Source: a virus (taxonomy: Duplodnaviria; Heunggongvirae; Uroviricota; Caudoviricetes). From it: 43,483 nt of DNA. The notes below the pieces were generated by a model, which saw only the letters and a program-made list of their open reading frames with translations, made no database searches and was not told the origin of the DNA. The stretch lies in IMG/VR virus record IMGVR_UViG_3300025327_000015. One strand, given 5' to 3'. Below, in pieces: positions 395 through 42,650 of the stretch; the stretch's first letter is position 1; each line of letters begins with the position of its first letter. The position numbers and the translations under genes were made by a program.

Positions 395-458
395 CAGTAG
401 CTCTGCGGGTGAGATTCTCGAACGTTTGAGAATCTCTTGCCCGGAGCGCTATTGCTCC
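395..458 (+). ncRNA. two-hairpin intergenic element, copy A (stem is palindrome copy 1)
   Basis: TGC-GGG..CCC-GGAGC gctatt GCTCC. Confidence 0.6.
415..432. promoter_or_regulatory. 18-bp palindrome, copy 1
   Basis: TTCTCGAACGTTTGAGAA. Confidence 0.75.
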
Positions 459-477
459 ATCTGAAAGGAGGTCTCTT

Positions 478-825
478 ATGTCCAAGCTCCTGTTCATGGT
501 TCTGAATGACGGAGAAACGTACACAGGACTTGGAGGCTGCAAGATCGTTGCGGTTGATTCGCTCATTGCCAGTGAGGAGGACGATGACAAGGCCATGCTC
601 GCTTCGGGCATAGTCGCGTTTGAGTTCTCGAACCGTCCAACACTCTGGGAACAGGACGTATTCCAGTTTCCGCGACTTCTAGCCGAAATCATGGCGATTG
701 ATTTCCGGGAATCTCAGTGGGATGAACTGCTCGCAGCGATGGATCTTGAATCCGACGATCTAGCAGCTCTCTTTGACCGTGCTCAAATGTCTTGGGAACG
801 GATCAAAGAAGCCACCACGAGGTAG
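478..825 (+). CDS. hypothetical protein
   Basis: ORF with AAGGAGG SD. Confidence 0.7.
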   Translation: MSKLLFMVLNDGETYTGLGGCKIVAVDSLIASEEDDDKAMLASGIVAFEFSNRPTLWEQDVFQFPRLLAEIMAIDFRESQWDELLAAMDLESDDLAALFDRAQMSWERIKEATTR

Positions 826-865
826 CCTGCGATTCCCGCTGGCTTCCTGAAAAGGAGATTCTAAA

Positions 866-1075
866 GTGGACATACGCATTGATAACTCCGGCGATCGAGA
901 CTTCGGAGTCATCGAACTAATCGATGGTGACCACATTGGAACGATCGTCACGCTTTGGATCGCAGATGATGGATGCCCGGTTATACAGATTGATACGCCT
1001 ACCGAAAAGGACACACACGATTTGATTCGAGTGTTTCTCAATGATGCGGTGATGGAAGCCGCAAGGATCAGGTAG
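866..1075 (+). CDS. hypothetical protein
   Basis: GTG start, AAGGAG SD; flanked by 17-bp direct repeats. Confidence 0.65.
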   Translation: MDIRIDNSGDRDFGVIELIDGDHIGTIVTLWIADDGCPVIQIDTPTEKDTHDLIRVFLNDAVMEAARIR

Positions 1076-1139
1076 CCCTGCGATTCCCGCTGGCGGGAAT
1101 CCAGTTGGACTGCTAAACGAAAAGGAGTCACTGTGTTCA

Positions 1140-1349
1140 GTGATGCTGCCATGCTGCGGGAACATCTCAGTCATAACTTCGTTCCTGCGATTTCGGAGTC
1201 CTTTGATTGCGCACAAGAGGCAATCAAGGCAGTCAAATGAGGGTGACTATGATCGGCAGATCAAGACTCCCTCCGGAAACATGATGGAGGCGTGCGAGAT
1301 TATCCAGGAACTACATCTCGACTTCTTCATCGACGAAGAACATCTATAG
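1140..1349 (+). CDS. hypothetical protein (start uncertain)
   Basis: ORF fills gap; AAGGAG upstream. Confidence 0.4.
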   Translation: MMLPCCGNISVITSFLRFRSPLIAHKRQSRQSNEGDYDRQIKTPSGNMMEACEIIQELHLDFFIDEEHL

Positions 1350-1366
1350 AAAAGGAGGTCCTACCG

Positions 1367-1642
1367 ATGTACGACGAATACTACGACGAGGATGAATGGG
1401 CTGAGCGAGTTGAACGCTTTGCCGATCCTGGAGGACCTTCGGCGCTTCATGTCGCTGATTCTGGCAATCCTCGTAATCTGCCTTGTCCGACCTGTGGCTG
1501 GCCGAACCGTCTCACACCACGAGACGTAGCGGCTGGCTATCAATGCGATTCTTGCGCTGATGCGCTTGAACGCGGGCAAGACATCTACTACTACGACGAA
1601 GATGAGGAGGAAGATGAGCTATGGCTCGACGATGGGATATAG
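1367..1642 (+). CDS. acidic CxxC/CxxC zinc-finger-like protein
   Basis: AAGGAGG SD before ATG 1367; CPTC...CDSC. Confidence 0.7.
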   Translation: MYDEYYDEDEWAERVERFADPGGPSALHVADSGNPRNLPCPTCGWPNRLTPRDVAAGYQCDSCADALERGQDIYYYDEDEEEDELWLDDGI

Positions 1643-1821
1643 CTCTCGTCGTGACGATTACGGCAGACATCTACAGTGATGCGCTGCAAGAGGCGGAAGC
1701 TCTCGCTGAGGGAATCGGGATGCAAGATGAGATCTCGATTTCTGCCGTCACCCACTACGATCGCGATAGCGAAGGACAACGAGTTCTCTACTTGCACGAC
1801 GAGAAGCAGCCGATCGTGTAG
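1621..1821 (+). CDS. hypothetical protein
   Basis: ORF; stop TAG begins hairpin element. Confidence 0.55.
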   Translation: MARRWDIALVVTITADIYSDALQEAEALAEGIGMQDEISISAVTHYDRDSEGQRVLYLHDEKQPIV

Positions 1822-1870
1822 TTGCGGGTTCCGTCGCTACCGCGCGGCGGTTCCCGGAGCTACATACTCC
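1819..1870 (+). ncRNA. two-hairpin element, copy D
   Basis: TAG TTGC GGG TT CCGTCGC..GCGGCGG TT CCC GGAG ctacata CTCC. Confidence 0.6.
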
Positions 1871-1891
1871 ACAAAGAAAGGAGGTTCTACG

Positions 1892-2356
1892 ATGCTGCAT
1901 AAGGGTTTTGTTGTCATTCAATACGACAATCCCGAAGTTGTCGGTCCATTCGACACGTTCGAGGACGCGCTCGAAGCAGCATGGAGCGAGTTGAATGAAG
2001 ATGCCTTCGATCCGGAAGGTGATTTCAGCTCGCTAAACGAGTGGTACTACGACGAGGATGGGCTCTGGATCGGAAAGCTCAGAGCCACGCCCTATCCGAT
2101 GAGTCATCAGCACACTAGCCACGAAATCTTCGAGCTGCTCGACGGAGCACACCTTGTCCGCTATGACAAGAGAAACGCTCTCTTGCTCATCTGGTTCGGA
2201 GGACACGGCATCCACGCCTACGATCCCTGGTGGCGGGAAGTGTCCTTCTGGAACGTCGAGGGCACGAGCACGAGCGAAGACGCTTCGCCTGCAAGTGTGC
2301 AGGAGTCGATGGAGAAGCACATTTCGGGCGAATACGAATACACAATCGAAACGTAA
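1892..2356 (+). CDS. hypothetical protein
   Basis: AAGGAGG SD before ATG 1892. Confidence 0.7.
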   Translation: MLHKGFVVIQYDNPEVVGPFDTFEDALEAAWSELNEDAFDPEGDFSSLNEWYYDEDGLWIGKLRATPYPMSHQHTSHEIFELLDGAHLVRYDKRNALLLIWFGGHGIHAYDPWWREVSFWNVEGTSTSEDASPASVQESMEKHISGEYEYTIET

Positions 2357-2375
2357 GGAAAGGAGAAAGGGACAG

Positions 2376-2644: not shown

Positions 2645-2662
2645 TTCTGAAAGGTTTGAGAA
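2645..2662. promoter_or_regulatory. 18-bp palindrome, copy 2
   Basis: TTCTGAAAGGTTTGAGAA directly after tRNA. Confidence 0.7.
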
Positions 2663-3154: not shown

Positions 3155-3172
3155 TTCTCAATCGTTTGAGAA
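3155..3172. promoter_or_regulatory. 18-bp palindrome, copy 3
   Basis: TTCTCAATCGTTTGAGAA running into SD. Confidence 0.7.
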
Positions 3173-3959: not shown

Positions 3960-4014
3960 CCCTGCGGGTTCTGCCGACTCCATGCGGCAGTTCCCGGAGT
4001 GCTAAGTTCACTTC
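3957..4014 (+). ncRNA. two-hairpin element, copy E
   Basis: TAGC CCTGC GGG TT CTGCCG..CGGCAG TT CCC GGAGTG ctaagtt CACTTC. Confidence 0.6.
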
Positions 4015-4033
4015 AGAAAGGAGGTCCTTCACC

Positions 4034-4267: not shown

Positions 4268-4318
4268 TCTGCGGATGGCGAGTTTGACAGGCTCGCCGTC
4301 CGGAGTCTTATGGTTCTC
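4262..4318 (+). ncRNA. two-hairpin element, copy F
   Basis: TAG TCTGC GGATGGCGAG..CTCGCCGTCC GGAG. Confidence 0.6.
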
Positions 4319-4331
4319 AAACGATTGAGAA
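4314..4331. promoter_or_regulatory. 18-bp palindrome, copy 4
   Basis: TTCTCAAACGATTGAGAA. Confidence 0.7.
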
Positions 4332-4345: not shown

Positions 4346-4420
4346 GGGTGGGTAGCTTATCGGTAAAGCCCTGGGTTGTGGTCCCAGACGAAGTCGGTTC
4401 AAATCCGACCCCACCCTCCA
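4346..4420 (+). tRNA. tRNA-His(GTG), CCA encoded, A-1/U73
   Basis: GGGTGGG/CCCACCC, GCTT/AAGC, CTGGG TTGTGGT CCCAG, GTCGG TTCAAAT CCGAC, T CCA. Confidence 0.85.
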
Positions 4421-5528: not shown

Positions 5529-5546
5529 TTCTCAAATCTTTGAGAA
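5529..5546. promoter_or_regulatory. 18-bp palindrome, copy 5
   Basis: TTCTCAAATCTTTGAGAA. Confidence 0.75.
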
Positions 5547-6626: not shown

Positions 6627-6644
6627 TTCTCAAAGGTTTGAGAA
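6627..6644. promoter_or_regulatory. 18-bp palindrome, copy 6
   Basis: TTCTCAAAGGTTTGAGAA. Confidence 0.75.
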
Positions 6645-7682: not shown

Positions 7683-7904
7683 ATGCTTCCGCACGTCGGC
7701 GACCGTATCGAGTTAGTTCTCATGCCTGATGATCCCTGTCCGATTGAGCCTGGTACACAGGGAACTGTCCGTTCAGTTTCCGGTCCTTGGAACTCACCGG
7801 CTGGAAAATCATGGCAAGTGAGCGTGGATTGGGATGTTCCTCGTTCACTCCTGCTCTGCATTCCTCCAGATGAGATCCGGATTATCGAAATGGCAATTGA
7901 TTGA
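7683..7904 (+). CDS. DUF4314-like protein
   Basis: GDRIEL..M.DDP.PI.PGT.GTV...V.WD pattern. Confidence 0.65.
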   Translation: MLPHVGDRIELVLMPDDPCPIEPGTQGTVRSVSGPWNSPAGKSWQVSVDWDVPRSLLLCIPPDEIRIIEMAID

Positions 7905-8371
7905 TCGGCGTTCTTCTACTCAATCCCAAATATCCACACAACGTTGGCGGTGCGCTGAGAGCTGCTGCCTGCTTCGGCGTGAATGTTTTTCGTTGGACCG
8001 GAGATCGAGTACCGCCTCCAGATGCGTGGCCGAAGGGTGCTCGCTTACCACGGGAAGAACGACTCCGTATCAATCAGAACGTGAATTGGGGGCATCTCAG
8101 TTTTGAGAATGTCAACTCATCAGCACTACGCTCTTTCACGCCTATCTGTGTCGAGAAATTAGAGCAAGCGGAATCGCTCTACGATTTCATTCATCCCGAG
8201 AACCCCCTTTACATCTTCGGGCCGGAGGATGGTACAATTTCACAGGGCTGGCGCGCTTTCTGTCACCGTTTTGTTCGCATTCCGACAGAGAATGACGGTC
8301 CATTAAACCTCGCTGCTGTTGTCAATGTCGTCTTGTACGACAGAGCAGCAAAGACATACTCAAACGTTTGA
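7901..8371 (+). CDS. SpoU/TrmH-family (SPOUT) RNA methyltransferase
   Basis: NPKYPHNVGGALRAAACFG; IFGPEDG; IP...LNLAAVVNVVLYDR. Confidence 0.85.
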   Translation: MIGVLLLNPKYPHNVGGALRAAACFGVNVFRWTGDRVPPPDAWPKGARLPREERLRINQNVNWGHLSFENVNSSALRSFTPICVEKLEQAESLYDFIHPENPLYIFGPEDGTISQGWRAFCHRFVRIPTENDGPLNLAAVVNVVLYDRAAKTYSNV

Positions 8372-8374
8372 GAA
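8357..8374. promoter_or_regulatory. 18-bp palindrome, copy 7
   Basis: TACTCAAACGTTTGAGAA overlapping stop codon and next SD. Confidence 0.7.
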
Positions 8375-8585: not shown

Positions 8586-8907
8586 GTGCGGAAAATGCGG
8601 TAGCGACATCGTGTATCCGGTCGGGACATGGCCTGTCGGCGAGTGCCCGAGCTGCTCAAGAGACGAGAAAATCGTCCGCCTCGAAGCTCGCCTCGAACGC
8701 GCTGAGAGTAGTTGGGTTCTGCAAGTAGCTGGGCTTGAACGCCGCGCCGAAGCCGCCAAAGCCCGCCTCGCGCGGCTGGAGCGGATCGAGGAGGCGGCAC
8801 GGGAGATTGATAGACGAGCGATGAACGCCATTCCGTTTGAGCCAGCAATCTTCGTTGCTCTCTCAAACGCCCTCGCCGCCAGCGAGGAAGGGGAATCTTC
8901 AACATGA
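8575..8907 (+). CDS. Zn-ribbon plus coiled-coil protein; shares a segment with 34035-34493
   Basis: CGKC..CPSC; RAEAAKARLARLER. Confidence 0.65.
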   Translation: MSAECGKCGSDIVYPVGTWPVGECPSCSRDEKIVRLEARLERAESSWVLQVAGLERRAEAAKARLARLERIEEAAREIDRRAMNAIPFEPAIFVALSNALAASEEGESST

Positions 8908-10171: not shown

Positions 10172-10172
10172 C

Positions 10173-11537: not shown

Positions 11538-11552
11538 AAGAAAACAACACGA

Positions 11553-11570
11553 TTCTCAAACGTTTGAGAA
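11553..11570. promoter_or_regulatory. 18-bp palindrome, copy 8
   Basis: TTCTCAAACGTTTGAGAA (perfect). Confidence 0.8.
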
Positions 11571-11588
11571 TCGAGAAAGGAAGTTGAG

Positions 11589-12353: not shown

Positions 12354-12355
12354 GA

Positions 12356-12373
12356 TTCTCAAACTTTAGAGAA
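12356..12373. promoter_or_regulatory. 18-bp palindrome, copy 9
   Basis: TTCTCAAACTTTAGAGAA. Confidence 0.7.
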
Positions 12374-14090: not shown

Positions 14091-14108
14091 TTCTCAAACC
14101 TTTGAGAA
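14091..14108. promoter_or_regulatory. 18-bp palindrome, copy 10
   Basis: TTCTCAAACCTTTGAGAA. Confidence 0.75.
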
Positions 14109-15799: not shown

Positions 15800-16030
15800 A
15801 TGCCCGAAAAGATTTCCGTTGAGTTGACCTACGACGAGTTGAGTTATCTCCACGGCTGGAGCAGCTTCGTCCGACATTCTCCAGATGGAGTTTGGGATGA
15901 GCGTGATGAAGCTGTTCGATTGTTGATTTATGAGGCGATGCTCAACTTTCCTAATTCTCAAAGGTTTGAGAATCATGACGCATCTTCAATCGAAAGTGAC
16001 CCTATGCAAGCACAGAGGCATGGCCTATGA
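15800..16030 (+). CDS. hypothetical protein
   Basis: AAAGGA SD; TGG-TAAAAT extended -10 at 15762-15770. Confidence 0.6.
   Translation: MPEKISVELTYDELSYLHGWSSFVRHSPDGVWDERDEAVRLLIYEAMLNFPNSQRFENHDASSIESDPMQAQRHGL
15955..15972. promoter_or_regulatory. 18-bp palindrome, copy 11 (intragenic)
   Basis: TTCTCAAAGGTTTGAGAA. Confidence 0.7.
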
Positions 16031-33012: not shown

Positions 33013-33058
33013 CCTTCGTTAGCGTCACGGCGCTCTATACCGGGTGGTGGGTGGTGCG

Positions 33059-33244: not shown

Positions 33245-33284
33245 CCGTGGCGGCGCTCTATGCCGGGTGGTGGGTGGTGCGGTG

Positions 33285-33614
33285 ATGACCGGGGCTCAGA
33301 TGATCGCCAGAGAACGTACTCGCCAGCATCGGCAAGAGGGCTGGACGGCCAAGCACGACAACGGTCACGTTCATCACGAGCTTGTCCGCGCCGCCGTCTG
33401 CTATGCGCTTCCCGAGCAGGTGCGCGAACAGAGGGTCCTGACCCAAACCCTGTTCTGGCATCTATGGCCTTGGGGATCGCGCTACTGGAAGCCGACTCCT
33501 GATGATCGCATCCGCGAGCTGGTCAAGGCGGGCGCGCTCATCGCCGCCGAGATCGACCGGCTTCACCGTCTCATCGCCCCGCCCCCTGAATCCGAGGAAG
33601 GTGGGGAGCGGTGA
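33285..33614 (+). CDS. conserved phage hypothetical protein
   Basis: ER.RQ...EGW...HD...AA.CYA...WPW...WKP...RELVKAGALIAAEIDRL. Confidence 0.75.
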   Translation: MTGAQMIARERTRQHRQEGWTAKHDNGHVHHELVRAAVCYALPEQVREQRVLTQTLFWHLWPWGSRYWKPTPDDRIRELVKAGALIAAEIDRLHRLIAPPPESEEGGER

Positions 33615-33793
33615 GTGAGCAAGAGGCTCTCGGCATGAGCAGTGGATGGACGAAGGGCGAGTACGTTGGTTTTCTGCCATTTGCGGCTGCGAATGTGCTG
33701 GTAGCAACAGGTCGCTATCAGTTTTGGCAGGCGAGCTTCTGGGGCTACACGGTAAAGCGAGTTTCTAAGCCCGAGGAAGATGGGGAGCAGTGA
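33611..33793 (+). CDS. hypothetical protein
   Basis: GTGA coupling via junction repeat. Confidence 0.55.
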   Translation: MSEQEALGMSSGWTKGEYVGFLPFAAANVLVATGRYQFWQASFWGYTVKRVSKPEEDGEQ

Positions 33794-34038
33794 ACGGGCT
33801 AAGGACTCTCGCGTATCGAATTCTGGCTGATCGTTATGCCACGCCTGCGGCGGCGATAGCAGCGGCGCAACTGATCATTCTCGACGACACCCTGATCGAC
33901 GTGACGCGGGCGGCGGAGCGCGCAGTCACATATCGCGACACGCGTGGCCTTGGTGGCTTAGCGAACCTGCCAGAGGATGCTCTCGATGATCTTGCAGAAG
34001 TTCTCGCCCCGTTCCTTGAGGAAGGTGGGGAGCGGTGA
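33790..34038 (+). CDS. hypothetical protein
   Basis: GTGA coupling via junction repeat. Confidence 0.55.
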   Translation: MNGLRTLAYRILADRYATPAAAIAAAQLIILDDTLIDVTRAAERAVTYRDTRGLGGLANLPEDALDDLAEVLAPFLEEGGER

Positions 34039-34493
34039 GCGCTGAGGACGTGCGGATCGTGCGGGAGGGACTGGATCGCCTTTTCAAGGCCAGCGGAGCA
34101 CCGCTTGAATGGAAGATTGAGAGCGTAGATGCCCTCGACCGCCTCGCCGCCCGCTTGCAGGAGGCTGAGCGGGAGCGGGACGACGCGGAGCAATCGTGGT
34201 CGATGTATGCAAAGGAGGCCGAAGACGCGAATACTCGCGCCGAAGCCCGCCTCGCGGAGGAGGAGAAACGGGCAACTGAGAACGGCCGACTCGCACAGAC
34301 TCATTGGGATCGTGCCGAAGCCGCCAAAGCCCGCCTCGCACGGCTGGAAAGAGCGTTGAGAATAGCGCGGCCGGTGGTGGAAAAGATGGCACAGGAGCGC
34401 GATTGGGATACAGACCTTGAGTGTTCGGTTCTAGCTTGGCCGGACATGCTACATCGGCTAGTAGTTATAGACGCCGCCCTCGCCAGCCAGTGA
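34035..34493 (+). CDS. coiled-coil hypothetical protein
   Basis: junction repeat; shares RAEAAKARLARLER with 8575-8907. Confidence 0.6.
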   Translation: MSAEDVRIVREGLDRLFKASGAPLEWKIESVDALDRLAARLQEAERERDDAEQSWSMYAKEAEDANTRAEARLAEEEKRATENGRLAQTHWDRAEAAKARLARLERALRIARPVVEKMAQERDWDTDLECSVLAWPDMLHRLVVIDAALASQ

Positions 34494-34508
34494 GGAAGGA
34501 GGGGAACG

Positions 34509-34862
34509 GTGAGAATGATTCAGGACTCTAACGACGAGTACGAGTACATGAGCGATACGGCAGAGAGCCGATGGGGAGCTGAGGACGTGCGGCCCTTGGC
34601 TGGGGCTGAATATGTCGGCAGGCGGTTTCCGTTCGCGGAGCGAGTAGAAATGTTCGTCGTTCGCGTCAATCATCCAAATGGACCGTGGGAGGCCATCTAC
34701 TGCCACACAGAGGCTCAAGCTCAAGAAATCGCCCGGATCGAAGCCCGCCTTGCGCGGCTGGAGCTTGCATTGGACACGATTGCTCGCGGTGAATATGCCG
34801 ACTTCGCCGAGAACGTCGCCAGGGACGCCCTCGCCGCCACCGAGGAAGGGGCAGAGAGATGA
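34509..34862 (+). CDS. hypothetical protein
   Basis: junction repeat; EARLARLE. Confidence 0.6.
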   Translation: MRMIQDSNDEYEYMSDTAESRWGAEDVRPLAGAEYVGRRFPFAERVEMFVVRVNHPNGPWEAIYCHTEAQAQEIARIEARLARLELALDTIARGEYADFAENVARDALAATEEGAER

Positions 34863-35110
34863 CTCCCGACGAACTGCGCGCGCTCGCAGACGAATGGGAG
34901 AGGCTTGGCATCCCTGACGACGAGTTGCCGATTGCGCTCGCGCGGCTGTGCGCGGAGATGGGGGAAGCGCTGGAGATTGCGGAGACAATCGCGATGACCT
35001 CGGCGCAAGGCTGGGAGTTACCGCGTGATGTTGTCACGGCCCTGAAGCGTGTGGAACGTGACAGCCGCGCCGCCCTCGCCAAGCTCGCGAAACTGGAGGC
35101 ACCGAAATGA
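34859..35110 (+). CDS. hypothetical protein
   Basis: ATGA coupling. Confidence 0.6.
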   Translation: MTPDELRALADEWERLGIPDDELPIALARLCAEMGEALEIAETIAMTSAQGWELPRDVVTALKRVERDSRAALAKLAKLEAPK

Positions 35111-36039
35111 GTGGCATCGCTGTCTATTCGGAATGGCTCGGCAACTGGGGGGCGCACCGCGCCCGCGACTTGCACGCAGAGGGCACGATCAACGCGGTCT
35201 ATGCGCTGGTCTGGCCGCCGAATGCTGCTGCGAAGGCGAACGCCGCCGCCTGGGAAATGTGGCGCGCGATCTACCCCGGCCCGCTGTGGGCGTGGATGAA
35301 CTGCTCGAAAGACCAGGCGGAGGACGCCTTTCAGCTTGCCGCGCTCGACGCCGCGCTCAAGCCGGACGGCTGGCTGCTCGACATCGAGGGTGAGTGGACG
35401 AAAGGTGCCAAGCTGGACACTATCGTCAGGGCTGCGAAGGCGACGGGAAAGCCCGTGAGGGCTTCCCTGGCTGGCGCCTCGGCCTCGCACGTTGAGTACG
35501 ACTATCGGCGCCTGGACGCGGCCGTCGAGTGGCAAGCCTACGCCGACTCGGGCGAAGGTCCGGATCCTGAGACGGCGGTGCGCGAACTGTACGAGTCGAG
35601 CTTCGTGATTCCGGGGTGGGAGTACCGGAGCTGGGTGAGACTGCCGGAGCAGAAGCGGGCTGTTTACGGCTGGGGCAAGATAGGCAGCGTTGATGGCGCA
35701 GCCGCCTGGTTTGATTCTTACCGTCGACCAAACGAAAGAGACGCTTACTTCATCGTGAGCGCGCGCGAATGGGGCTTCACCGTCAAGGATCATGTTCTGT
35801 GGCCGACTGAAGTATCCGAGCCACCGCTCGGCCGCCTCCTCGGCCGCGCCCGCTACTCCAAGATCAGGGTTGCGCTCATCGTCTCCGAGGAGATCGAGCA
35901 GCGCCGGACACTCGCGGAGTGGACAGCCTACGCGGCCTCGGCGCGGATGCCGGGGATGGCGAAGCGACCAATCAGTGTGTACCTGGCGGAGCGGGCGAGC
36001 GATGACGTGCTGCGGGCGGTGGCGAAGGGAGCGGGATGA
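35107..36039 (+). CDS. hypothetical protein, possible glycoside-hydrolase-like barrel
   Basis: 310 aa; WLLDIEGEW recalls the GH25 DxE motif (weak). Confidence 0.6.
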   Translation: MSGIAVYSEWLGNWGAHRARDLHAEGTINAVYALVWPPNAAAKANAAAWEMWRAIYPGPLWAWMNCSKDQAEDAFQLAALDAALKPDGWLLDIEGEWTKGAKLDTIVRAAKATGKPVRASLAGASASHVEYDYRRLDAAVEWQAYADSGEGPDPETAVRELYESSFVIPGWEYRSWVRLPEQKRAVYGWGKIGSVDGAAAWFDSYRRPNERDAYFIVSAREWGFTVKDHVLWPTEVSEPPLGRLLGRARYSKIRVALIVSEEIEQRRTLAEWTAYAASARMPGMAKRPISVYLAERASDDVLRAVAKGAG

Positions 36040-36356
36040 TGTACGACACCCGACATCAACAACCGCGAGTGGCGTTCCCATTAACTGAACAATTTCATGG
36101 GAACGCGATGGTCTTTCGATTGAGGACTCGGAGATTCCCAAAATGCTCAAACGGTTCCTCGGGACGTGAGTTGCTCGTCTTCGAGGGTGAGGCGGCGAAG
36201 ATTCAGGAGATAAAGGGAACGCTGCGCAAGCATCGCAAGTTTCAAAGATCGCCGCTGCCGAGTGCTGACTTATGGAAGAATGCGGCGGAGCGAACGGCTG
36301 CGTGGCGCGATCGTCGAAGGGAGGAAAGGGTTGATCAGATTTCGCAAGAGGCGTAA
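36036..36356 (+). CDS. hypothetical protein
   Basis: coupled start. Confidence 0.4.
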   Translation: MMYDTRHQQPRVAFPLTEQFHGNAMVFRLRTRRFPKCSNGSSGRELLVFEGEAAKIQEIKGTLRKHRKFQRSPLPSADLWKNAAERTAAWRDRRREERVDQISQEA

Positions 36357-36629
36357 CGGCCGCGTTCGCACTGACGTCGTGATCAAGCGGTTCACCCAGA
36401 GCGAGCAGGACGACATCCTTAGGGATGCTCTGAGGCGCGAGCGAGAGGTCTTCCAGCTCACCGCTGGCCAGCGCAAGACCTTGCGCACTGGGAGCTAAGT
36501 CACCCGCCATGACGGAGGTCTGCAAGCGCGCGAGCTGCTTTCTGTCCTCATCGAGTTCGAGAATGGAGACAGAACTGTGACTTCTATTCGTGCCTTGCGA
36601 TCAGCGAAGAAACAGGAACAACTTTCAAT

Positions 36630-36932
36630 ATGACCTTCATACCACTTGAGCAGCGCAAACAAGAGCGCGAGTTTTACGACTCACAACCTATGCGAAGTAC
36701 ATGTCTTTTCTGTGAATGGTCTATTGAGGGGAGGGCAAATGAAGTGCGTAATCAAGCACTTGCCCATCGACAAGAAAAACATTCGGAGACGTTTAAGAGA
36801 CGTCGATCTTTTCGAAGCCGTCGTGCTCTGAGTACGTTTCGTTATGTGGAAATGGATAATGAGGAGCGCGATGAGGTAGAGCAGGAGCGGAGACGACGTG
36901 CATACCTCATTGGGATCGAAATTGACGAATGA
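36630..36932 (+). CDS. C2H2-like basic protein
   Basis: CLFCEW...AHRQEKH. Confidence 0.6.
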   Translation: MTFIPLEQRKQEREFYDSQPMRSTCLFCEWSIEGRANEVRNQALAHRQEKHSETFKRRRSFRSRRALSTFRYVEMDNEERDEVEQERRRRAYLIGIEIDE

Positions 36933-38980
36933 TTCCATTTCTTCAAGATGCAGATTGCATTATCTACTGTGGTGACGTCGAAGAAGTGTTGCATGAGCTT
37001 TCTGCTGAGAGCGTTGATTGTGTTGTAACCAGTCCACCCTTCTGGAATCTTCGGGATTATGGAACCGCCAAATGGGAAAGCGGAGATTCTCAGTGTGATC
37101 ATATCGAGAGAGAGATTCGCACTGGACTAGGATTAGCTGAATGGAGTGCTGAGAACGCAAGAGGTGGAGCCCATAAGGCAGGCTCTGTTGATCGTATTGC
37201 TTACCGCTCTAAATGTGATAAATGCGGTGCAGTTCGTATTGATCAACAATTAGGACTTGAATCTACGCCGGAAGAATATGTAGAGCGGCTAGTTAGGATC
37301 TTTCGAGAGGTACGGAGAGTTCTTGCTCCGCATGGGACGGTTTGGCTGAATCTAGGAGATTCCTACGCTGCGAATCGTTCTTATCAAGTCAGTGATTCTA
37401 AACATCCTTCTCATGACTTTGTAGATTCGAACAAGGCAAAAACGCCCTCTGGGATGAAACCAAAGGATTTGATAGGTATTCCTTGGATGGTTGCTTTTGC
37501 ATTACGAGCTGATGGCTGGTACTTAAGAAGTGACATTGTGTGGTCTAAAAGTAATCCGATGCCTGAAAGTGTTACTGATCGTCCAACTAAAGCCCATGAG
37601 TATATTTTTTTGCTTTCAAAATCACCGCGCTATTATTTTGATCAAGAAGCCGTCCGTGAACCTGCCGAATGGAATCGCTGGGGGGATCAGACCGTTCCGA
37701 AATATGAAGGGACGCAAACCTCTACGGGTTGGATCAAACCAAAGACGAAAACTGAACTGTTAAACAGGAATCGCCAAAGCTATCCATCTGGTCAAACAGG
37801 TGGGAACACACTCAAAAATCATGTTAAAGGGAGTTCAGGAGGTATGCCTATTAATCCAGCGGGCCGCAACATTCGTTCAGTTTGGGAAATGGAGCAGACG
37901 GGGCGCGCTGCATGGTCGAAGTACACACTGAACGACGCCTACTTTTCATCCATCGAGACTGAGGAGCAGGCGTACTGGCTCGGCTTCCTCTACGCCGATG
38001 CCCACGTCGGGGTTCGACACGTTGACCTCCAACTCTCGGACAAAGACCGAGAGCACATCCTTCACTTCCGCGACACGCTCGGCTCGTCTTATGAGCCAAA
38101 GGACACGGGAGACGGGCGCATTCGTGTGGTCCTCTCGTCCAAGCGCATGGCCGAGGATCTCCTAGCGTTCGGTATCAAGACGCAGATGCTGATTCCCGAC
38201 ATGCCAGACGATCTCGTTCGTCACTTCGTACGCGGACTGTTTGACGGTGACGGAAGCGCGTGGAAATACCTGCCGTCAGGCCGAACCAAGTGGCGTTACG
38301 GAGCGCAGTTCCTCGGCACCGAAAGGATGCTCACCGCAATTCGAGACATTCTCAGACTGAAGGCGAAGCCGAAATTCGAACGCGGCATCTACCGCATCTC
38401 CATTGCGTCAGCGGCTGAACTGGCGCAGCTGTACGAGTACCTCTACGACGGGGCGACTGTCTATCTTAAACGTAAGCGCCGGGAGTTCCCGCAAGCGCAG
38501 CACGTCGCCTCTGACGTGTGGTCTATTGCTACTCAACCCTATGCTGAAAGCCATTTCGCTGTATTTCCTGAAGAAATACCACGACGAGCGATTCTAGCAG
38601 GTTGTCCTGAGCAGGTATGTCGTACCTGTGGTAAGCCAAGAGAACGGGTAGTTGAGCGTGAAATACCTATTGATCCAGGTCGTGGTGAAAGCAAACTTCG
38701 TGATGCTTCTGGTCTTTCAGCAAGGGCTTCCAGCACAGCAAAGCGTCAGCTAGGCGGGAACTATCAAAAACAACTTGATAAGAATCTTCGCACTTCTACT
38801 TGGACTGACTGTGGACATGAGGATTTCAGATCAGGCATTGTGCTCGATCCATTTATGGGCTCAGGAACCGTAGCCTTCGTCGCTCGCAATCTACTCCGTC
38901 ATTCAATTGGAATTGAGCTAAATGAGGACTATTGCCATCTGGCGGCTAAACGTCTGCAGCAACTCTCATTACTTGTATGA
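36929..38980 (+). CDS. N4C/N6A DNA methyltransferase (beta class) with in-frame LAGLIDADG insert
   Basis: VTSPPFW; WLNLGD; KDLIGIPW; DIVWSK; HEYIFLLSK; HFAVFP; LDPFMGSGT. Confidence 0.92.
   Translation: MIPFLQDADCIIYCGDVEEVLHELSAESVDCVVTSPPFWNLRDYGTAKWESGDSQCDHIEREIRTGLGLAEWSAENARGGAHKAGSVDRIAYRSKCDKCGAVRIDQQLGLESTPEEYVERLVRIFREVRRVLAPHGTVWLNLGDSYAANRSYQVSDSKHPSHDFVDSNKAKTPSGMKPKDLIGIPWMVAFALRADGWYLRSDIVWSKSNPMPESVTDRPTKAHEYIFLLSKSPRYYFDQEAVREPAEWNRWGDQTVPKYEGTQTSTGWIKPKTKTELLNRNRQSYPSGQTGGNTLKNHVKGSSGGMPINPAGRNIRSVWEMEQTGRAAWSKYTLNDAYFSSIETEEQAYWLGFLYADAHVGVRHVDLQLSDKDREHILHFRDTLGSSYEPKDTGDGRIRVVLSSKRMAEDLLAFGIKTQMLIPDMPDDLVRHFVRGLFDGDGSAWKYLPSGRTKWRYGAQFLGTERMLTAIRDILRLKAKPKFERGIYRISIASAAELAQLYEYLYDGATVYLKRKRREFPQAQHVASDVWSIATQPYAESHFAVFPEEIPRRAILAGCPEQVCRTCGKPRERVVEREIPIDPGRGESKLRDASGLSARASSTAKRQLGGNYQKQLDKNLRTSTWTDCGHEDFRSGIVLDPFMGSGTVAFVARNLLRHSIGIELNEDYCHLAAKRLQQLSLLV
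37886..38521 (+). mobile_element. in-frame LAGLIDADG homing-endonuclease domain (212 codons)
   Basis: AYWLGFLYADA and FVRGLFDGDGS; interrupts RSVW|SIATQP; visibly GC-richer. Confidence 0.8.
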
Positions 38981-39610: not shown

Positions 39611-39943
39611 ATGTCCAAACTGATCTTGAATGAAGAACTTCCTCTCGATCTAAGAGAAGCTCTAGAACGGGATGCGGCAGAAGATGACATCACCATCAAT
39701 GACGCTGCTACTCGTGTTCTAGCCAAGAACTATGAAGTGAAGTGGGAACCGTCTGGGTTTCGATACCGTCCTGTAGCTGCCCGCTTCAAACTCCGCGTCC
39801 CAACAGTTCTTCACCGTGAGATTCGAATGGATGCTGCCAACAGACTGGCGACAGTCCGTGGTGTAGTCTTGAGTGTGCTTGCGGAGCATTACGGGGCAGT
39901 CAGCATAGATCCGCATCGTCGTTCTCGAAAGGAAGTGGCATGA
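39611..39943 (+). CDS. tandem ribbon-helix-helix-like DNA-binding protein
   Basis: LPLDLREALERDAA...INDAA and LRVPTVLHREIRMDAA...VRGVV. Confidence 0.55.
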   Translation: MSKLILNEELPLDLREALERDAAEDDITINDAATRVLAKNYEVKWEPSGFRYRPVAARFKLRVPTVLHREIRMDAANRLATVRGVVLSVLAEHYGAVSIDPHRRSRKEVA

Positions 39944-41107: not shown

Positions 41108-41401
41108 ATGGCGATCAAGTCGTATACACACCGCTCTTGGCGAGAGCTTCCGCGCGAAGGCGAATGCGCTCTCGTTGATCTTATCGGCGGCGAATGCCGG
41201 GGTGCTCTTGGCTGGCATCATATTCATCCTCTTTCTGAGGACGGCAATGACGAAGACGGTTTGCTGCTTGCCTGTCAACGCCATCATCAATTGCTTCATG
41301 GTGCTCGCAGGCGCGCTCTACCACAATGGAGACGGTGTCGGCATACGCATCGGACCCGCGAGTCACGGCTGCTCTGTGAGCGTCGTCTAAACACAGGCTA
41401 G
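41108..41401 (+). CDS. HNH-like endonuclease
   Basis: HHIHPLS.DG.D..GLLLACQRHH..LH. Confidence 0.6.
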   Translation: MAIKSYTHRSWRELPREGECALVDLIGGECRGALGWHHIHPLSEDGNDEDGLLLACQRHHQLLHGARRRALPQWRRCRHTHRTRESRLLCERRLNTG

Positions 41402-41402
41402 T

Positions 41403-41420
41403 TTCTCAAAGTTTTGAGAT
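41403..41420. promoter_or_regulatory. 18-bp palindrome, copy 15
   Basis: TTCTCAAAGTTTTGAGAT. Confidence 0.7.
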
Positions 41421-41426
41421 TTTAGT

Positions 41427-41456
41427 TTGCGTTGTATTGAAAATCTTTGGTATACT
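41427..41456 (+). promoter_or_regulatory. candidate housekeeping-sigma promoter
   Basis: TTGCGT-18-TATACT with TG extension. Confidence 0.6.
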
Positions 41457-41485
41457 TCTAATACCCCCAAAGAAAGGAGCCAGCA

Positions 41486-41689
41486 ATGGCCAAGAAGGAA
41501 GTATTCGTCTCCGACCTGTCTGGCGAGGCGATCGATGGTGCGGCTGCTCAGGTGACGATTCGTCTCACCTCCAAGCCGCGCTCTGTGTTCGTGCTCGACG
41601 CCAAGGAAGAGGAAGTGGGAATGCTCCTCTCTAAGGCAACCGAGCGTACTCGGCGTGGTCGCAAGCCCAAGGCCGTCGCCGCTGCCTGA
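41486..41689 (+). CDS. Lsr2-like dimerisation-domain protein with basic tail
   Basis: MAKKEVFVSDLSG...VTIRL...FVLD; RRGRKPK tail; AAAGGAG SD. Confidence 0.6.
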   Translation: MAKKEVFVSDLSGEAIDGAAAQVTIRLTSKPRSVFVLDAKEEEVGMLLSKATERTRRGRKPKAVAAA

Positions 41690-41696
41690 GAATCAT

Positions 41697-41779
41697 CTGG
41701 GACCTCGGCTCTGTAGTAGCGAGTTGATCGCCGCGAACTGGGCCTGTGTGTAAACGACCCGGCTAAGCGGGCGTCCCAG
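41697..41779 (+). ncRNA. candidate structured RNA
   Basis: CTGGGAC/GTCCCAG closing stem with several internal hairpins. Confidence 0.35.
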
Positions 41780-41804
41780 TCTCAAGCCTGTTAGAGTGCC
41801 GCCC

Positions 41805-42245
41805 ATGACGGGCGAAGAACTCGTCGTACCTGTTACCGGAGAGATTGTTGATCTCTCAAATGAGACGCAATGTGCCCAGGCGCTCGCAGCACTTCGGGAT
41901 GCTGAATCTCAGATTCGAGAGATTAAAGCGGTGTTGACTGCCGCTATCGTTGAGCGGGCAAAACTGCTTGGGACTCAGACACTTACTCTTGAAAATGGAA
42001 TGAAGGCAGTTCTCAAGGGCGGCACTGAAACGATATATGACGCTACTGAGATCGAAAGACAACTTCGCGTACTCGGAATGCCAGAAGAACGAATTCGAGA
42101 AATCGTGATCGAGGAGGTATCTTACAAGGTATCAGCGAAGGAGGCAAAACGAGCAGCGGCAGCGAATGATGAATACGCAGCCGTAGTTAATAGTGCGAAA
42201 CAAACAATCGAAAAGCCGCTCTATATCTCTATTCAACGGCGATGA
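41805..42245 (+). CDS. hypothetical coiled-coil protein
   Basis: ORF; start uncertain. Confidence 0.65.
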   Translation: MTGEELVVPVTGEIVDLSNETQCAQALAALRDAESQIREIKAVLTAAIVERAKLLGTQTLTLENGMKAVLKGGTETIYDATEIERQLRVLGMPEERIREIVIEEVSYKVSAKEAKRAAAANDEYAAVVNSAKQTIEKPLYISIQRR

Positions 42246-42622
42246 GAGTAATCGTAACTGGAAGTCGTGGTTGGGGAGATCGCGAGCGAATTGCTGAGCG
42301 TCTATGTGATCTTCCTGGCGATACTGTTATCGTTCATGGTGCTGCGCGTGGAGTTGATCGTATTGCCCATCAGGAAGCACAGAAAGCTGGATTCTTACTA
42401 GAACCGCATCCTGCTGATTGGGACCGTTATGGGAAACGTGCTGGCTTTATCCGTAACGAAGAGATGGCGAATCTGGGCGCCGACCTCTGTATTGCGTTTT
42501 GGGATGGACGAAGTAGAGGTACTTTGGACATGATGGAGCGATGTGCGGAACATAGTATTCCTATCGAAGTTCAACACAAGGATTTCCCGAACCGTCCGCA
42601 AAGAGAAGTATTTTCGACATAG
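42242..42622 (+). CDS. SLOG-superfamily (DUF2493/YspA-like) protein
   Basis: VIVTGSR; IVHGAARGVD; PADWDRYGKRAGFIRNEEM; AFWDGRSRGT. Confidence 0.85.
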   Translation: MRVIVTGSRGWGDRERIAERLCDLPGDTVIVHGAARGVDRIAHQEAQKAGFLLEPHPADWDRYGKRAGFIRNEEMANLGADLCIAFWDGRSRGTLDMMERCAEHSIPIEVQHKDFPNRPQREVFST

Positions 42623-42632
42623 TCGATTTGGA

Positions 42633-42650
42633 TTCTCAAAGGTTTGAGAA
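42633..42650. promoter_or_regulatory. 18-bp palindrome, copy 16
   Basis: TTCTCAAAGGTTTGAGAA. Confidence 0.75.

What the first reader, a model, noticed from the sequence alone, without database searches (positions are those of the whole stretch)
415..42650. Sixteen copies of an 18-bp palindrome, TTCTCAAA-NN-TTTGAGAA
Seen at 415, 2645, 3155, 4314, 5529, 6627, 8357, 11553, 12356, 14091, 15955, 18958, 26352, 29461, 41403 and 42633, each with at most one mismatch in the arms. Most are intergenic just ahead of an SD. Three sit inside CDS, encoding SQxFE. Two lie 2-6 bp upstream of sigma-type promoters (18978, 41427). None occur in the GC-rich block at about 30.3-36.5 kb. Known: genome-wide operator arrays exist in actinophages (phiC31 conserved inverted repeats, mycobacteriophage stoperators), and ParB proteins bind dispersed palindromic parS sites. 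Inference: a global operator or parS-like network. Candidate binders are the ParB-like protein 19090 (directly downstream of copy 12), HTH 17961, HTH 20617, RHH 39611 and LmbU-like 40284.
Basis: partly seen in the sequence, partly recalled or inferred. Interest (0 to 1): 0.72.

Follow-up and report, generated by a model that had tools for sequence, protein, structure and literature searches.

The report
Lineage-specific palindrome marking phage gene starts
An uncultivated 109-kb soil phage places one 18-bp DNA palindrome in front of about twenty of its early and middle genes. Eight relatives carry a different palindrome at the same places, so it is probably the docking site of a phage regulator not yet identified, a kind of repeat array already known from actinobacteriophages.

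Summary
All 16 copies of TTCTCAAA-NN-TTTGAGAA lie at the stated coordinates (0.01 expected by chance). Six more lie in the 6 kb upstream of the window; this scan had already noted the same palindrome there, in the neighbouring window of this genome. 19 of the 22 copies are intergenic. Most sit between a stop codon and the next Shine-Dalgarno sequence, three flank tRNA genes, and three lie just upstream of promoters.

The new result is comparative. Eight related uncultivated phages (about 50% protein identity) each have their own 16-18-bp palindrome at the same kind of place. The GATase|462-aa gene junction carries a palindrome in all nine, in eight different sequence versions. This implies a sequence-specific trans-acting factor that co-evolves with its sites.

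Symmetry through the exact centre, uncompensated half-site variants, no G·U bias and the promoter-proximal copies favour a DNA operator (confidence about 0.5). An excess of site-specific flank complementarity keeps an RNA-hairpin reading alive (about 0.2).

The binder is unresolved. RHH 39611 and the 40284 protein are disfavoured. The ParB-fold protein (19090) and the sigma-region-4-like HTH protein (17961) are each missing from at least one relative that has an array.

The closest known cases are the Cluster K ESAS and Cluster O repeats. I file this as a new member of a known kind, of moderate interest.

The parts
415..432 (.). Palindrome copy 1 (TTCTCGAACGTTTGAGAA, 1 mismatch). It lies between stop 390 and start 478, inside a stop-codon/CCCGGAG hairpin module.
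2645..2662 (.). Copy 2. It abuts the 3' end of tRNA-Tyr (2571-2644) and is followed by an SD and TTG at 2676.
3155..3172 (.). Copy 3. It lies 8 nt after stop 3146; the SD touches its right end; the next start is at 3183.
4314..4331 (.). Copy 4, 14 nt upstream of tRNA-His (4346-4420).
5529..5546 (.). Copy 5 (perfect), 22 nt before start 5569.
6627..6644 (.). Copy 6 (perfect), 29 nt before start 6674.
8357..8374 (.). Copy 7. It overlaps the TGA stop of the SpoU-methylase-like gene 7901-8371; the next start is at 8385.
11553..11570 (.). Copy 8 (perfect), in the leader of the Amidoligase_2 gene (start 11589). It lies about 55 nt downstream of a candidate promoter, TTGACG-19-TAAATT.
12356..12373 (.). 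Copy 9, 2 nt after stop 12353 and 15 nt before start 12389.
14091..14108 (.). Copy 10 (perfect), directly after the GATase stop (14088-14090) and before the 462-aa gene (14136). This junction carries a palindrome in all nine related phages, in eight different sequence versions.
15955..15972 (.). Copy 11 (perfect), inside the 3' end of CDS 15800-16030 and 55 nt before the next start at 16027.
18958..18975 (.). Copy 12 (perfect), 10 nt after stop 18947 and 2 nt upstream of the -35-like hexamer of the promoter of the ParB-fold gene operon. Its centre is at about -45.
18978..19005 (+). Promoter TAGACT ... TGGTATGTT (extended -10). It is conserved, with the same 24-nt distance from the palindrome, in relatives L160 and L175.
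26352..26369 (.). Copy 13 (perfect), in the 3' part of ORF 25888-26454 and 9 nt before the TTG start of ORF 26379-26747.
29461..29478 (.). Copy 14 (perfect), inside the 5' end of CDS 29441-30229 (codons 8-12, reading S-Q-T-F-E).
41403..41420 (.). Copy 15 (1 mismatch), 6 nt upstream of promoter TTGCGT-18-TATACT. It is followed by a T-rich run and is the only copy that looks like an intrinsic terminator.
41427..41456 (+). Promoter TTGCGT-18-(TGG)TATACT ahead of the 67-aa gene 41486-41689.
42633..42650 (.). Copy 16 (perfect), 10 nt after stop 42622.
19090..19899 (+). Candidate binder A: a protein with the ParB/Noc/KorB fold (N-domain plus HTH plus C-terminal helices), transcribed from the promoter next to copy 12.
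   Evidence: Against it.
17961..18485 (+). Candidate binder B: a 174-aa protein with a sigma-70 region-4.2-like HTH, a second HTH and two H/CxC..C zinc-knuckle helices.
   Evidence: Against it.
17259..17678 (+). Untested candidate: a 139-aa protein with an N-terminal C2H2-like finger, present in all nine phages.
18511..18759 (+). Untested candidate: a basic 82-aa protein present in all nine phages, with no family match.

Best explanation
The palindromes are operator sites on double-stranded DNA for one sequence-specific, two-fold symmetric (dimeric or paired) DNA-binding protein encoded by the phage. This protein controls the early and middle (non-structural) gene block.

Shown:
- There are at least 22 copies in about 49 kb, nearly all in the short spacers in front of genes.
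- Nine related phages keep the positions but use eight different palindromes, so sites and reader must co-evolve.

Inferred:
- At the promoter-proximal copies the bound protein would occlude, or contact, RNA polymerase. These are the first early promoter, the promoter of the ParB-fold operon and the promoter of the 67-aa gene.
- At the many copies wedged between a stop codon and the next ribosome-binding site, or before a tRNA gene, it would act as a roadblock to elongating polymerase. One protein could then shut down, or time, the whole block, as stoperators do.

The identity of the protein is not established.
For: 1. Non-random and gene-start linked. 16 copies against 0.01 expected, plus 6 upstream. 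19 of 22 are intergenic where 15% of the DNA is non-coding. Across nine phages, 54 of 83 sites have an SD plus start within 35 nt, against about 20% of random positions.

2. Lineage-specific sequence at conserved positions:
- window: GATTCTCAAA-NN-TTTGAGAATC
- L160 and L175: TTCTCAA-WW-TTGAGAA
- L074: AACTCAAAATTTTGAGTT
- L075: AACTGGAAATTTCCAGTT
- L158: TTCTCCGGATCCGGAGAA
- L073: GATCTCAAWTTGAGATC
- L076: RTGTCAAATTTGACAY
- L077: GATCTCAGATCTGAGATC
The junction between the conserved GATase stop and the conserved ATG-CCT-CTT-GG start carries the palindrome in all nine.

3. The symmetry is DNA-like.
- Five lineages are palindromic through the exact centre. Where the centre varies (window, L160, L175, L073) it varies freely, as in operators whose central base pairs are not contacted.
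- Half-site variants recur in either arm without compensation. TTCTCGAA occurs on the left at 415; TTCGAGAA occurs on the right at two upstream copies; TTCTGAAA occurs three times, giving G·G.
- Transition mismatches show no G·U over A·C bias: 6 against 9 (counted).

4. Promoter-proximal copies.
- A palindrome plus two extra direct half-sites 11 bp apart lie just upstream of TTGACA-18-CATACT, before the first early gene.
- Copy 12 lies 24 nt before TGGTATGTT. The promoter and this spacing are conserved in L160 and L175. In L073 a variant palindrome overlaps the -35 position.
- L075:602 and L074:8693 also precede -35/-10 pairs.

5. Copies also precede tRNA genes (L176). The signal therefore marks transcribed units in general, not translation starts as such.
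Against: 1. Complementarity extends beyond the lineage consensus, with site-specific sequences, more often than in flank-swapped controls: mean 1.03 against 0.51 pairs, p = 3e-6. A protein/dsDNA operator does not predict this.

2. Most copies would fold as RNA hairpins of -10 to -20 kcal/mol.

3. No binder is identified.
- The sigma-r4-like protein is missing exactly at its syntenic slot in L175, and its similarity does not track palindrome similarity (Mantel r = 0.12).
- The ParB-fold protein is absent from 31 kb of L073 and 21 kb of L076.
- Its correlation with palindrome type (r = 0.75) is matched by the GATase enzyme (r = 0.77), so it reflects phylogeny.

4. Half-site spacing differs between lineages (3, 4 or 6 bp between the CTCA arms). 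That is awkward for one rigid dimer family.

5. There are no binding data and no expression data.
Confidence: 0.5

Rival explanations
1. RNA-level element. The palindrome is transcribed as a hairpin at the head of each cistron and next to tRNAs, and is read by a lineage-specific RNA-binding or RNA-cutting factor. It would act as processing punctuation, a 5'-end stabiliser, or a translational operator beside the SD.
For: - All genes and all copies lie in one transcription direction.
- Copies sit stop|hairpin|SD and beside tRNA genes.
- Predicted RNA hairpins are mostly -10 to -20 kcal/mol.
- Site-specific flank complementarity exceeds controls. Examples are gcagagc/gctctgc at L073:2912 and caggccgga/tcggcctg at the copy 805 nt upstream of the window.
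- Three early copies with imperfect cores have extended flanks.
- Three copies form the inner hairpin of a longer conserved stop-codon module.
Against: - There is no G·U over A·C bias among transition mismatches: 6 against 9 overall, 3 against 5 at inner positions.
- Seven of 22 copies in this phage have a mid-stem mismatch that cannot pair.
- Five lineages are self-complementary through what would be the loop. Pairing does not require this, and loop-reading proteins usually need a fixed loop, whereas the window's 'loop' NN varies freely.
- Several copies lie upstream of promoters.
- No RNA-binding candidate was found.
Confidence: 0.22
2. parS-like loading sites for the phage ParB-fold protein. 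They would serve genome segregation, condensation or compartment targeting, not gene regulation.
For: - The 19090 protein models with the ParB N-domain plus HTH fold. Top matches are Spo0J 1vz0 and the C. crescentus ParB-parS complex 6t1f, Foldseek probability 1.0.
- Known ParB-family sites are 13-16-bp palindromes (established knowledge).
- Copy 12 lies at the promoter of this gene, and this arrangement is conserved in L160 and L175.
Against: - Sites are tied to gene starts, which parS function does not require.
- No ParB-fold homologue is detected in 31 kb of L073/L176 or 21 kb of L076, both of which carry arrays (HMM, E up to 10 for L176 and up to 1 for L073/L076).
- L075's copy lacks the N-terminal domain.
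- No ParA was seen among the genes scanned (not an exhaustive scan).
Confidence: 0.08
3. REP-like selfish or recombination element. A short palindrome spreads within each genome, by a transposase or nuclease or by hairpin-mediated repair, or serves as a micro-homology for cassette shuffling. Its uniform sequence would then reflect copying, not a reader.
For: - Copies are near-identical within a genome and differ between genomes.
- Flank complementarity is in excess.
- In Cluster O phages, one inserted gene is flanked by the 17-bp repeat (PMC4351075).
Against: - The same junction is occupied in all nine phages although only about a third of gaps carry a copy. That fits descent with co-evolution, not repeated insertion.
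- Copies do not interrupt genes.
- No Y1/RAYT-type or other transposase turned up in the proteins scanned.
- The three short contigs of the same phage found in other samples are 99.9-100% identical to the window and show no insertion polymorphism.
Confidence: 0.07
4. Binding sites for a host transcription factor that the phage exploits or titrates.
For: - Half-sites resemble -35 hexamers: TTGAGA here, TTGACA in L076.
- Such host-operator arrays were noted in other phages by this scan (leads only).
Against: - Nine related phages use eight different palindromes with different spacing. This would require as many different host factors.
- The motif matched no operator I could recall. That is recall only: no motif database was available.
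Confidence: 0.05

Closest known systems
Extended start-associated sequences (ESAS) and SAS of Cluster K mycobacteriophages (Pope et al. 2011, PMC3203893)
   Same: - They are inverted repeats placed just upstream of the translation starts of a subset of non-structural genes.
- The consensus differs between subclusters.
- Orthologous genes keep the element across genomes.
- Function and binder are unknown.
   Different: - ESAS are imperfect 17-bp arms with a 4-13-bp variable spacer, and are coupled to a 13-bp asymmetric SAS that replaces the SD.
- Here the element is a tight 16-22-bp perfect palindrome ahead of an ordinary GAAAGGAG SD, with no SAS.
- Here it also occurs at promoters and beside tRNA genes.
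17-bp palindromic repeats of Cluster O mycobacteriophages (TGTTCGG-NNN-CCGAACA; Cresawn et al. 2015, PMC4351075)
   Same: - There are dozens of copies of a 7-3-7 dyad, mostly intergenic and denser in the non-structural arm.
- The central bases are free to vary.
- The function is unknown.
- Those phages are not known to be temperate, and they too carry ParB-like domain proteins and a virion glycosylation cassette.
   Different: - The Cluster O repeats are described as not closely linked to translation starts, and the paper does not report different versions of the repeat among the five genomes it compares.
- Here the copies hug gene starts, and the motif differs in eight versions across nine relatives.
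Stoperators of Cluster A mycobacteriophages (L5 gp71-type repressor)
   Same: - Many copies of one short site lie in short intergenic spaces of the transcribed arms.
- The proposed action is a roadblock to elongating RNA polymerase plus promoter repression.
- This is the mechanism I consider most likely here.
   Different: - Stoperators are asymmetric 13-bp sites oriented with transcription and bound by the immunity repressor of a temperate phage (as summarised in PMC4351075, and from established knowledge).
- Here the sites are symmetric.
- No repressor homologue or lysogeny module was identified.
KorB and its OB operators on IncP plasmid RK2, and ParB-parS / Noc-NBS generally
   Same: - A ParB-fold protein is encoded in the window, and its model aligns with KorB, ParB and Noc structures.
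- That family binds 13-16-bp palindromes.
- KorB uses about a dozen dispersed operators, some just upstream of -35 elements, as a global repressor (established knowledge).
- Copy 12 sits in that kind of position at the gene's own promoter.
   Different: - Binding is untested.
- The protein is absent from the fetched DNA of two array-bearing relatives.
- The window protein does not reach any Pfam family at E 0.01 or better, PF02195 (ParB N-terminal domain) included.
- The nucleotide-binding motif reads DGRNR, not GERR.
Conserved inverted repeats (CIRs) of Streptomyces phage phiC31 bound by the c repressor
   Different: - CIRs sit at early promoters of a temperate phage and their repressor is known.

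Membership tests
Stoperator system (Cluster A mycobacteriophages) | Asymmetric 13-bp site with fixed orientation relative to transcription | tested here: not met
   The sites are perfect or near-perfect palindromes.
Stoperator system (Cluster A mycobacteriophages) | Many copies in short intergenic spaces of transcribed arms | tested here: met
   19 of 22 copies are intergenic.
Stoperator system (Cluster A mycobacteriophages) | Bound by the phage immunity repressor; temperate life style | not testable with these tools
   No repressor or integrase was recognised among the proteins scanned. Binding cannot be tested here.
ParB-parS partition / KorB-OB regulon | Palindromic site of 13-16 bp or more | tested here: met
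   The dyads are 16-22 bp.
ParB-parS partition / KorB-OB regulon | ParB-fold protein (N-domain, HTH, C-terminal dimerisation) encoded by the replicon | tested here: met
   The AF2 model has pLDDT 86. Foldseek matches Spo0J 1vz0, ParB 6t1f, KorB 8qa9 and Noc 7ol9.
ParB-parS partition / KorB-OB regulon | Protein and sites co-occur in every genome that has the sites | tested here: not met
   There is no HMM hit in L073+L176 (31 kb) or L076 (21 kb), both of which carry arrays. Those genomes were only partly fetched.
ParB-parS partition / KorB-OB regulon | ParA/KorA-type partner and specific binding of the protein to the site | not tested
   No ParA was seen in the scanned subset of proteins.
Cluster K ESAS/SAS | Inverted repeat immediately upstream of translation starts of non-structural genes, conserved at orthologous genes, with a consensus that differs between lineages | tested here: met
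   compared with the paper's text.
Cluster K ESAS/SAS | Coupled 13-bp SAS (GGGATAGGAGCCC-type) in place of the SD | tested here: not met
   An ordinary GAAAGGAG SD follows the palindromes.
Intrinsic terminator | GC-rich hairpin followed by a U-tract | tested here: not met
   The stems are A/T-rich and no T-run follows, except at 41403.
Structured RNA element (hairpin read as RNA) | Pairing kept by compensatory or G·U changes on the transcribed strand | tested here: inconclusive
   The core shows no G·U bias (6 against 9) and has uncompensated mid-stem mismatches. However, flanks show excess site-specific complementarity.
REP/RAYT-type mobile palindromes | Associated Y1 transposase and insertion polymorphism between relatives | tested here: not met
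   The orthologous junction is occupied in all nine phages. No transposase family was hit. The other contigs of the same phage show no polymorphism.

The most novel reading that the evidence does not exclude
The palindrome is not a classical operator but a private 'gene-start tag' that works as a hairpin, either in the transcript or as extruded DNA. A lineage-specific phage factor would recognise stem sequence plus structure at the head of every early cistron and beside tRNA genes, and would process, protect or load onto each unit. Each phage lineage has re-coded the tag and its reader together, giving eight versions in nine phages. This would be a phage-encoded punctuation code for polycistronic transcripts, for which I know of no described precedent.
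Probability: 0.17. Interest if true: 0.7.

Novelty: new member of a known kind. Interest (0 to 1): 0.45.

Why it matters
Dispersed short repeats in the non-structural arms of actinobacteriophage-like genomes have been known for over a decade: Cluster A stoperators, Cluster K SAS/ESAS and the Cluster O palindromes. For ESAS and the Cluster O repeats, neither the binder nor the function is known.

This family offers an unusually clean natural experiment. Nine phages have star-like divergence of about 50%, the same gene junctions, and eight different palindromes. That makes the question testable. Express each candidate protein from two or three lineages and ask which one binds its own palindrome but not the others'.

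If the element acts as RNA, it would be a new kind of transcript punctuation.

As it stands, this is a well-documented example of a known phenomenon. It is also the second sighting of this palindrome in this genome by the scan.

Tried and rejected
- **Close DNA relatives among cultured phages:** none by megablast. tblastn with the 462-aa protein also found none.
- **The palindrome in IMG/VR and in metagenome contigs:** only single chance copies, so this genome and its family are not in those two collections. The palindromes of L077 and L073 in IMG/VR also gave chance hits only. One 148-kb contig has three widely spaced copies and no array.
- **The search for related loci with the 462-aa protein:** nothing.
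- **The search for related loci with the sigma-r4-like alignment:** mostly single-domain matches. The two full-length hits lack palindrome arrays. One of them, L078, instead has an asymmetric start-associated motif.
- **The palindrome as a sigma-70 promoter:** rejected. No -10 lies at the right distance, and often there are only 0-10 nt between the palindrome and the SD.
- **Covariation of whole-protein similarity with palindrome similarity (Mantel):** not discriminating. The ParB-fold protein gives r = 0.75 but the GATase enzyme gives r = 0.77.
- **Homodimer prediction for the sigma-r4-like protein:** no verdict (score 0.00). This is neither for nor against binding.
- **Foldseek of the sigma-r4-like model against PDB:** no hit at E 0.001 or better, only local likeness to sigma-A domain 4 and AraC-type double HTH. 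The top profile hit, 8vd6, is cited in a protein-design paper and appears to be a designed repeat protein, so it is irrelevant.
- **Expression data:** no RNA holder listed among public runs; all 20 holders are DNA metagenomes.
- **The genome search on the relatives' records:** those records are not held.
- **ESM Atlas look-ups for the two universal small proteins:** uninformative.
- **Strain-level indels bounded by palindromes:** the three shorter contigs of the same phage are 99.9-100% identical to the window, so there was nothing to compare.

Full report
**Observation.** Nine are perfect and seven have one mismatch, and no further matches appear at two mismatches. Dinucleotide-preserving shuffles give 0.01 matches. 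The repeat finder recovers the same family and shows that the consensus usually extends to GATTCTCAAA-NN-TTTGAGAATC. The window is about 50% GC apart from a 61-66% GC block at about 31-36 kb, which has no copy. All plausible genes are on the + strand.

**Source and extent.** The window is part of an uncultivated phage genome of about 109 kb. The JGI contig Ga0209341_10000041 is 108,733 bp and the longest contig carrying its proteins is 109,585 bp. The phage was found in soil, sediment and groundwater metagenomes. Fetching the 10 kb upstream of the window (L070; window coordinate = L070 minus 9523) shows six more copies. These lie between the first rightward early promoter and the window's start. 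That is the stretch where this scan had already noted the same palindrome (e1-1678636). The array therefore has at least 22 copies over about 49 kb.

**Placement.**
- Using the gene calls returned with the loci plus my own for the last 18 kb, 19 of 22 copies fall in gaps between genes, although only 15% of the DNA is non-coding. 17 of 48 gaps of 20 nt or more carry a copy, and copy 8357, which overlaps a stop codon, sits at a further 13-nt gap.
- The typical arrangement is stop codon, 0-25 nt, palindrome, 0-20 nt, GAAAGGAG, start codon. 14 of 22 copies have an SD plus start within 35 nt, against 21% of random positions.
- Copy 8357 overlaps a stop codon. Three copies are inside reading frames, and 29461 reads SQTFE as stated.
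- Two copies flank tRNA genes. 2645 abuts the 3' end of tRNA-Tyr and 4314 lies 14 nt before tRNA-His.
- A second class lies just upstream of promoters.
  - The first copy (L070:3442), plus two extra direct half-sites TTTGAGAA 11 bp apart, sits immediately before TTGACA-18-CATACT.
  - Copy 18958 lies 2 nt before TAGACT and 24 nt before TGGTATGTT.
  - Copy 41403 lies 6 nt before TTGCGT-18-TATACT.
- Other copies lie downstream of candidate promoters, for example TTGACA-17-GACAAT about 95 nt before the copy at -4650, and TTGACG-19-TAAATT before 11553.
- Sigma-70-like promoters as a class are not enriched.

**Relatives.** The 462-aa protein (14136-15524) has homologues at about 50% identity on long metagenomic contigs. 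I fetched 11-21 kb around eight of them. All share the ATP-grasp / Amidoligase_2 / GATase / 462-aa core and the same one-directional layout. A de novo scan for repeated inverted repeats finds a different dominant palindrome in each:

| Phage | Palindrome | Copies |
|---|---|---|
| L160 and L175 | TTCTCAA-WW-TTGAGAA | 7 and 5 |
| L074 | AACTCAAAATTTTGAGTT | 8, plus 2 ATCTCAAAATTTTGAGAT |
| L075 | AACTGGAAATTTCCAGTT | 3 |
| L158 | TTCTCCGGATCCGGAGAA | 7, all perfect |
| L073 | GATCTCAAWTTGAGATC | 12 |
| L076 | RTGTCAAATTTGACAY | 8 |
| L077 | GATCTCAGATCTGAGATC | 11 |

- A more distant 48-kb phage (L159, 39% identity) has no array.
- The placement is the same as in the window: 54 of 83 sites overall have an SD plus start within 35 nt.
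- The clearest single picture is the GATase|462-aa junction. The flanking coding sequence is conserved (...ATC-TGA/TAA and ATG-CCT-CTT-GG...), and between the two genes each of the nine phages has its own palindrome followed by the SD.
- Only about a third of gaps carry a copy, so occupation of one junction in all nine argues for descent with co-evolution, not repeated insertion.
- The sequences therefore change in concert within a genome. That requires a sequence-specific reader that differs between lineages, and a phage-encoded one is far more likely than eight different host factors.

**DNA or RNA?**

In favour of recognition as duplex DNA:
- (a) Five lineages are palindromic through the exact centre. 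Where the centre varies (NN here, WW in L160/L175, W in L073) it varies freely. This is the usual pattern for a dimer that does not contact the central base pairs. It is not the pattern for proteins that read hairpin loops.
- (b) Half-site variants recur in either arm with no compensating change. TTCTCGAA occurs on the left at 415, TTCGAGAA on the right at two upstream copies, and TTCTGAAA three times, giving G·G. Seven of the 22 copies have a mid-stem mismatch that cannot pair.
- (c) Over all phages, transition mismatches split 6 G·U-type to 9 A·C-type on the transcribed strand (3 to 5 at inner positions). Selection for RNA pairing would favour G·U.
- (d) Several copies lie upstream of promoters, and in L073 a variant overlaps the -35 position of a TGGTATACT promoter.

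In favour of a hairpin:
- Complementarity continues beyond the lineage consensus with site-specific sequences more often than when left and right flanks are swapped between sites. Over 74 sites the mean is 1.03 against 0.51 extra pairs, and 26% against 10% of sites have two or more extra pairs (Mann-Whitney p = 3e-6).
- Most copies would fold at -10 to -20 kcal/mol as RNA.
- Three early copies form the inner hairpin of a longer stop-codon module, TAGCTCTGCGGGT...CCCGGAGCGCT (compare e1-1678635).

I read the balance as favouring a DNA operator that often shares cramped intergenic space with RNA structures. The RNA reading is not excluded. Copies in front of tRNA genes (L176) argue against a purely translational role under either reading.

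**Who binds?** The search for a binder gave no firm result.
- *Shared families.* Six protein families are shared by the window phage and the seven relatives compared: ATP-grasp, GATase, the 462-aa protein, a 139-aa protein with a weak C2H2 finger (17259), a 174-aa HTH protein (17961) and a basic 82-aa protein (18511). L175, fetched later, lacks the HTH protein (17961), and its ATP-grasp gene was not looked for.
- *17961 (sigma-r4-like).*
  - Its HTH is almost letter for letter sigma-70 region 4.2 (VGKEFGITRERVRQIL). A second HTH and two H-x-C-x-C-x2-C knuckles follow.
  - The palindrome half-sites resemble -35 hexamers (TTGAGA; TTGACA in L076), which makes this protein attractive.
  - However, it models as a monomer with two non-identical HTHs.
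  - Its similarity between phages does not follow palindrome similarity (r = 0.12). The window and L160 share arms but are only 36% identical.
  - In L175 it is missing exactly at its slot between the 17259 and 18511 homologues.
- *19090 (ParB fold).*
  - It models confidently as a ParB/Noc/KorB-type protein with N-domain, HTH and C-terminal helices. Known members of this family bind palindromes as dimers.
  - Its operon is preceded by palindrome plus promoter in three phages.
  - However, a family HMM finds no copy in 31 kb of L073/L176 or 21 kb of L076, and L075's copy lacks the N-domain.
  - Its Mantel correlation with palindrome type (r = 0.75) is equalled by the GATase enzyme (r = 0.77), so it is phylogenetic signal.
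- *39611 and 40284.* The tandem RHH (39611) and the 40284 protein have homologues in L073's genome. Their presumed DNA-reading segments are identical or nearly so, although the palindromes differ. I consider them unlikely.
- *20617.* This is an HNH_repeat homing-endonuclease-type protein. No copy was found in the DNA fetched from L073/L176, L076 or L175.
- *17259 and 18511.* These are present in all nine phages and untested.
- All contigs except the window's own were only partly fetched, so every absence is provisional.

**Comparison with known systems.**
- The nearest described cases are the ESAS of Cluster K mycobacteriophages. These are inverted repeats just upstream of translation starts of non-structural genes, with a subcluster-specific consensus, conserved at orthologous genes, and of unknown function (PMC3203893).
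- Next are the 17-bp palindromes of Cluster O phages. They number over 30 copies, are mostly intergenic, have a free central triplet and an unknown function, and occur in phages that also carry ParB-like domain proteins (PMC4351075).
- Mechanistically I expect something like Cluster A stoperators or KorB-OB. Membership in either fails a tested defining feature: site asymmetry for stoperators, and co-occurrence with a ParB-fold gene for KorB/ParB.

**Verdict.** The element is real, is a family trait, and is most likely an operator array for an unidentified, co-evolving phage regulator (confidence about 0.5). It is a new member of a known kind of phage repeat array, and the scan had already met it in the adjoining window. 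Its main value is the nine-lineage comparison, which turns the open question of what reads these arrays into a simple cross-binding experiment.

Noticed in passing
window 17961-18485: A 174-aa protein whose N-terminal HTH is nearly identical in its DNA-reading helix to sigma-70 region 4.2 (TRERVRQI). Foldseek aligns 44 residues to S. aureus sigma-A domain 4 at 45% identity. A second HTH and two H..CxC..C knuckle-helix units follow. The AF2 model has pLDDT 95.5. There are over 280 homologues at E<1e-10, and some proteins carry up to 14 tandem copies of the HTH unit. It could be a sigma-domain-4 mimic.
   Followed up: partly
window 36929-38980: An N6/N4 DNA methyltransferase whose Pfam and PHROG matches are split by an inserted endonuclease-like segment of about 200 residues (phrog_4645; weak LAGLIDADG hit). 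This looks like an intein or other mobile insertion. The L073 homologue (448 aa) lacks the insert.
   Followed up: partly
window ~30300-36500: A block of 61-66% GC in a 50% GC genome. It has no palindrome copy, a weak Rpf-type transglycosylase domain hit (31207-32256; below Pfam's cut-off) and its own junction repeat GAGGAAGGTGGGGAGCGGTGAG (four copies). It looks like a module acquired from a high-GC actinobacterial phage or host and not yet wired into the palindrome network. A 38-nt stretch at 8743-8780 is 95% identical to 34311-34348.
   Followed up: no
window 9404-15524 and all eight relatives: A conserved cluster of an ATP-grasp (RimK-like) protein, Amidoligase_2, a class-II glutamine amidotransferase and a 462-aa protein with faint Amidoligase_2 hits. 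It is probably a peptide or metabolite amidoligase system and is the most conserved module of this phage family.
   Followed up: no
window 440-473, 2875-2908, 3993-4026 (and relatives): A second repeat, CCCGGAGYGCT-loop-...GAAAGGAGG. It is a small GC hairpin directly ahead of the SD and is shared across the related phages. It sometimes combines with the palindrome and with a TAGCTCTGCGGGT segment at the preceding stop codon.
   Followed up: partly
window 18997-19005; L160:12037; L175:9406; L073:17489; window 41448: An extended -10 promoter, TGGTATRYT, recurs right after palindromes in four phages. The version ahead of the ParB-fold operon keeps a 24-nt distance from the palindrome in three phages.
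   Followed up: partly
L078 (IMGVR_UViG_3300020047_004355) 954, 11243, 11617, 12268: A different phage with a full-length homologue of the sigma-r4-like protein has four copies of an asymmetric motif, AATTCACCTAACTAAGGAG, fused to the SD just before start codons. This is an SAS-like start-associated sequence and not a palindrome.
   Followed up: no
window 27672-27757 (-) and 31274-31361 (+): ARAGORN calls a tRNA-Lys on the minus strand and a tRNA-Ser(ACT). Both lie within plus-strand reading frames and are likely false positives. They were not examined.
   Followed up: no
window 39611-39943: A 110-aa protein built of two tandem ribbon-helix-helix-like repeats, that is, a single-chain pseudo-dimer. 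It is 57% identical to its homologue in L073's genome, with identical beta-strand segments.
   Followed up: partly
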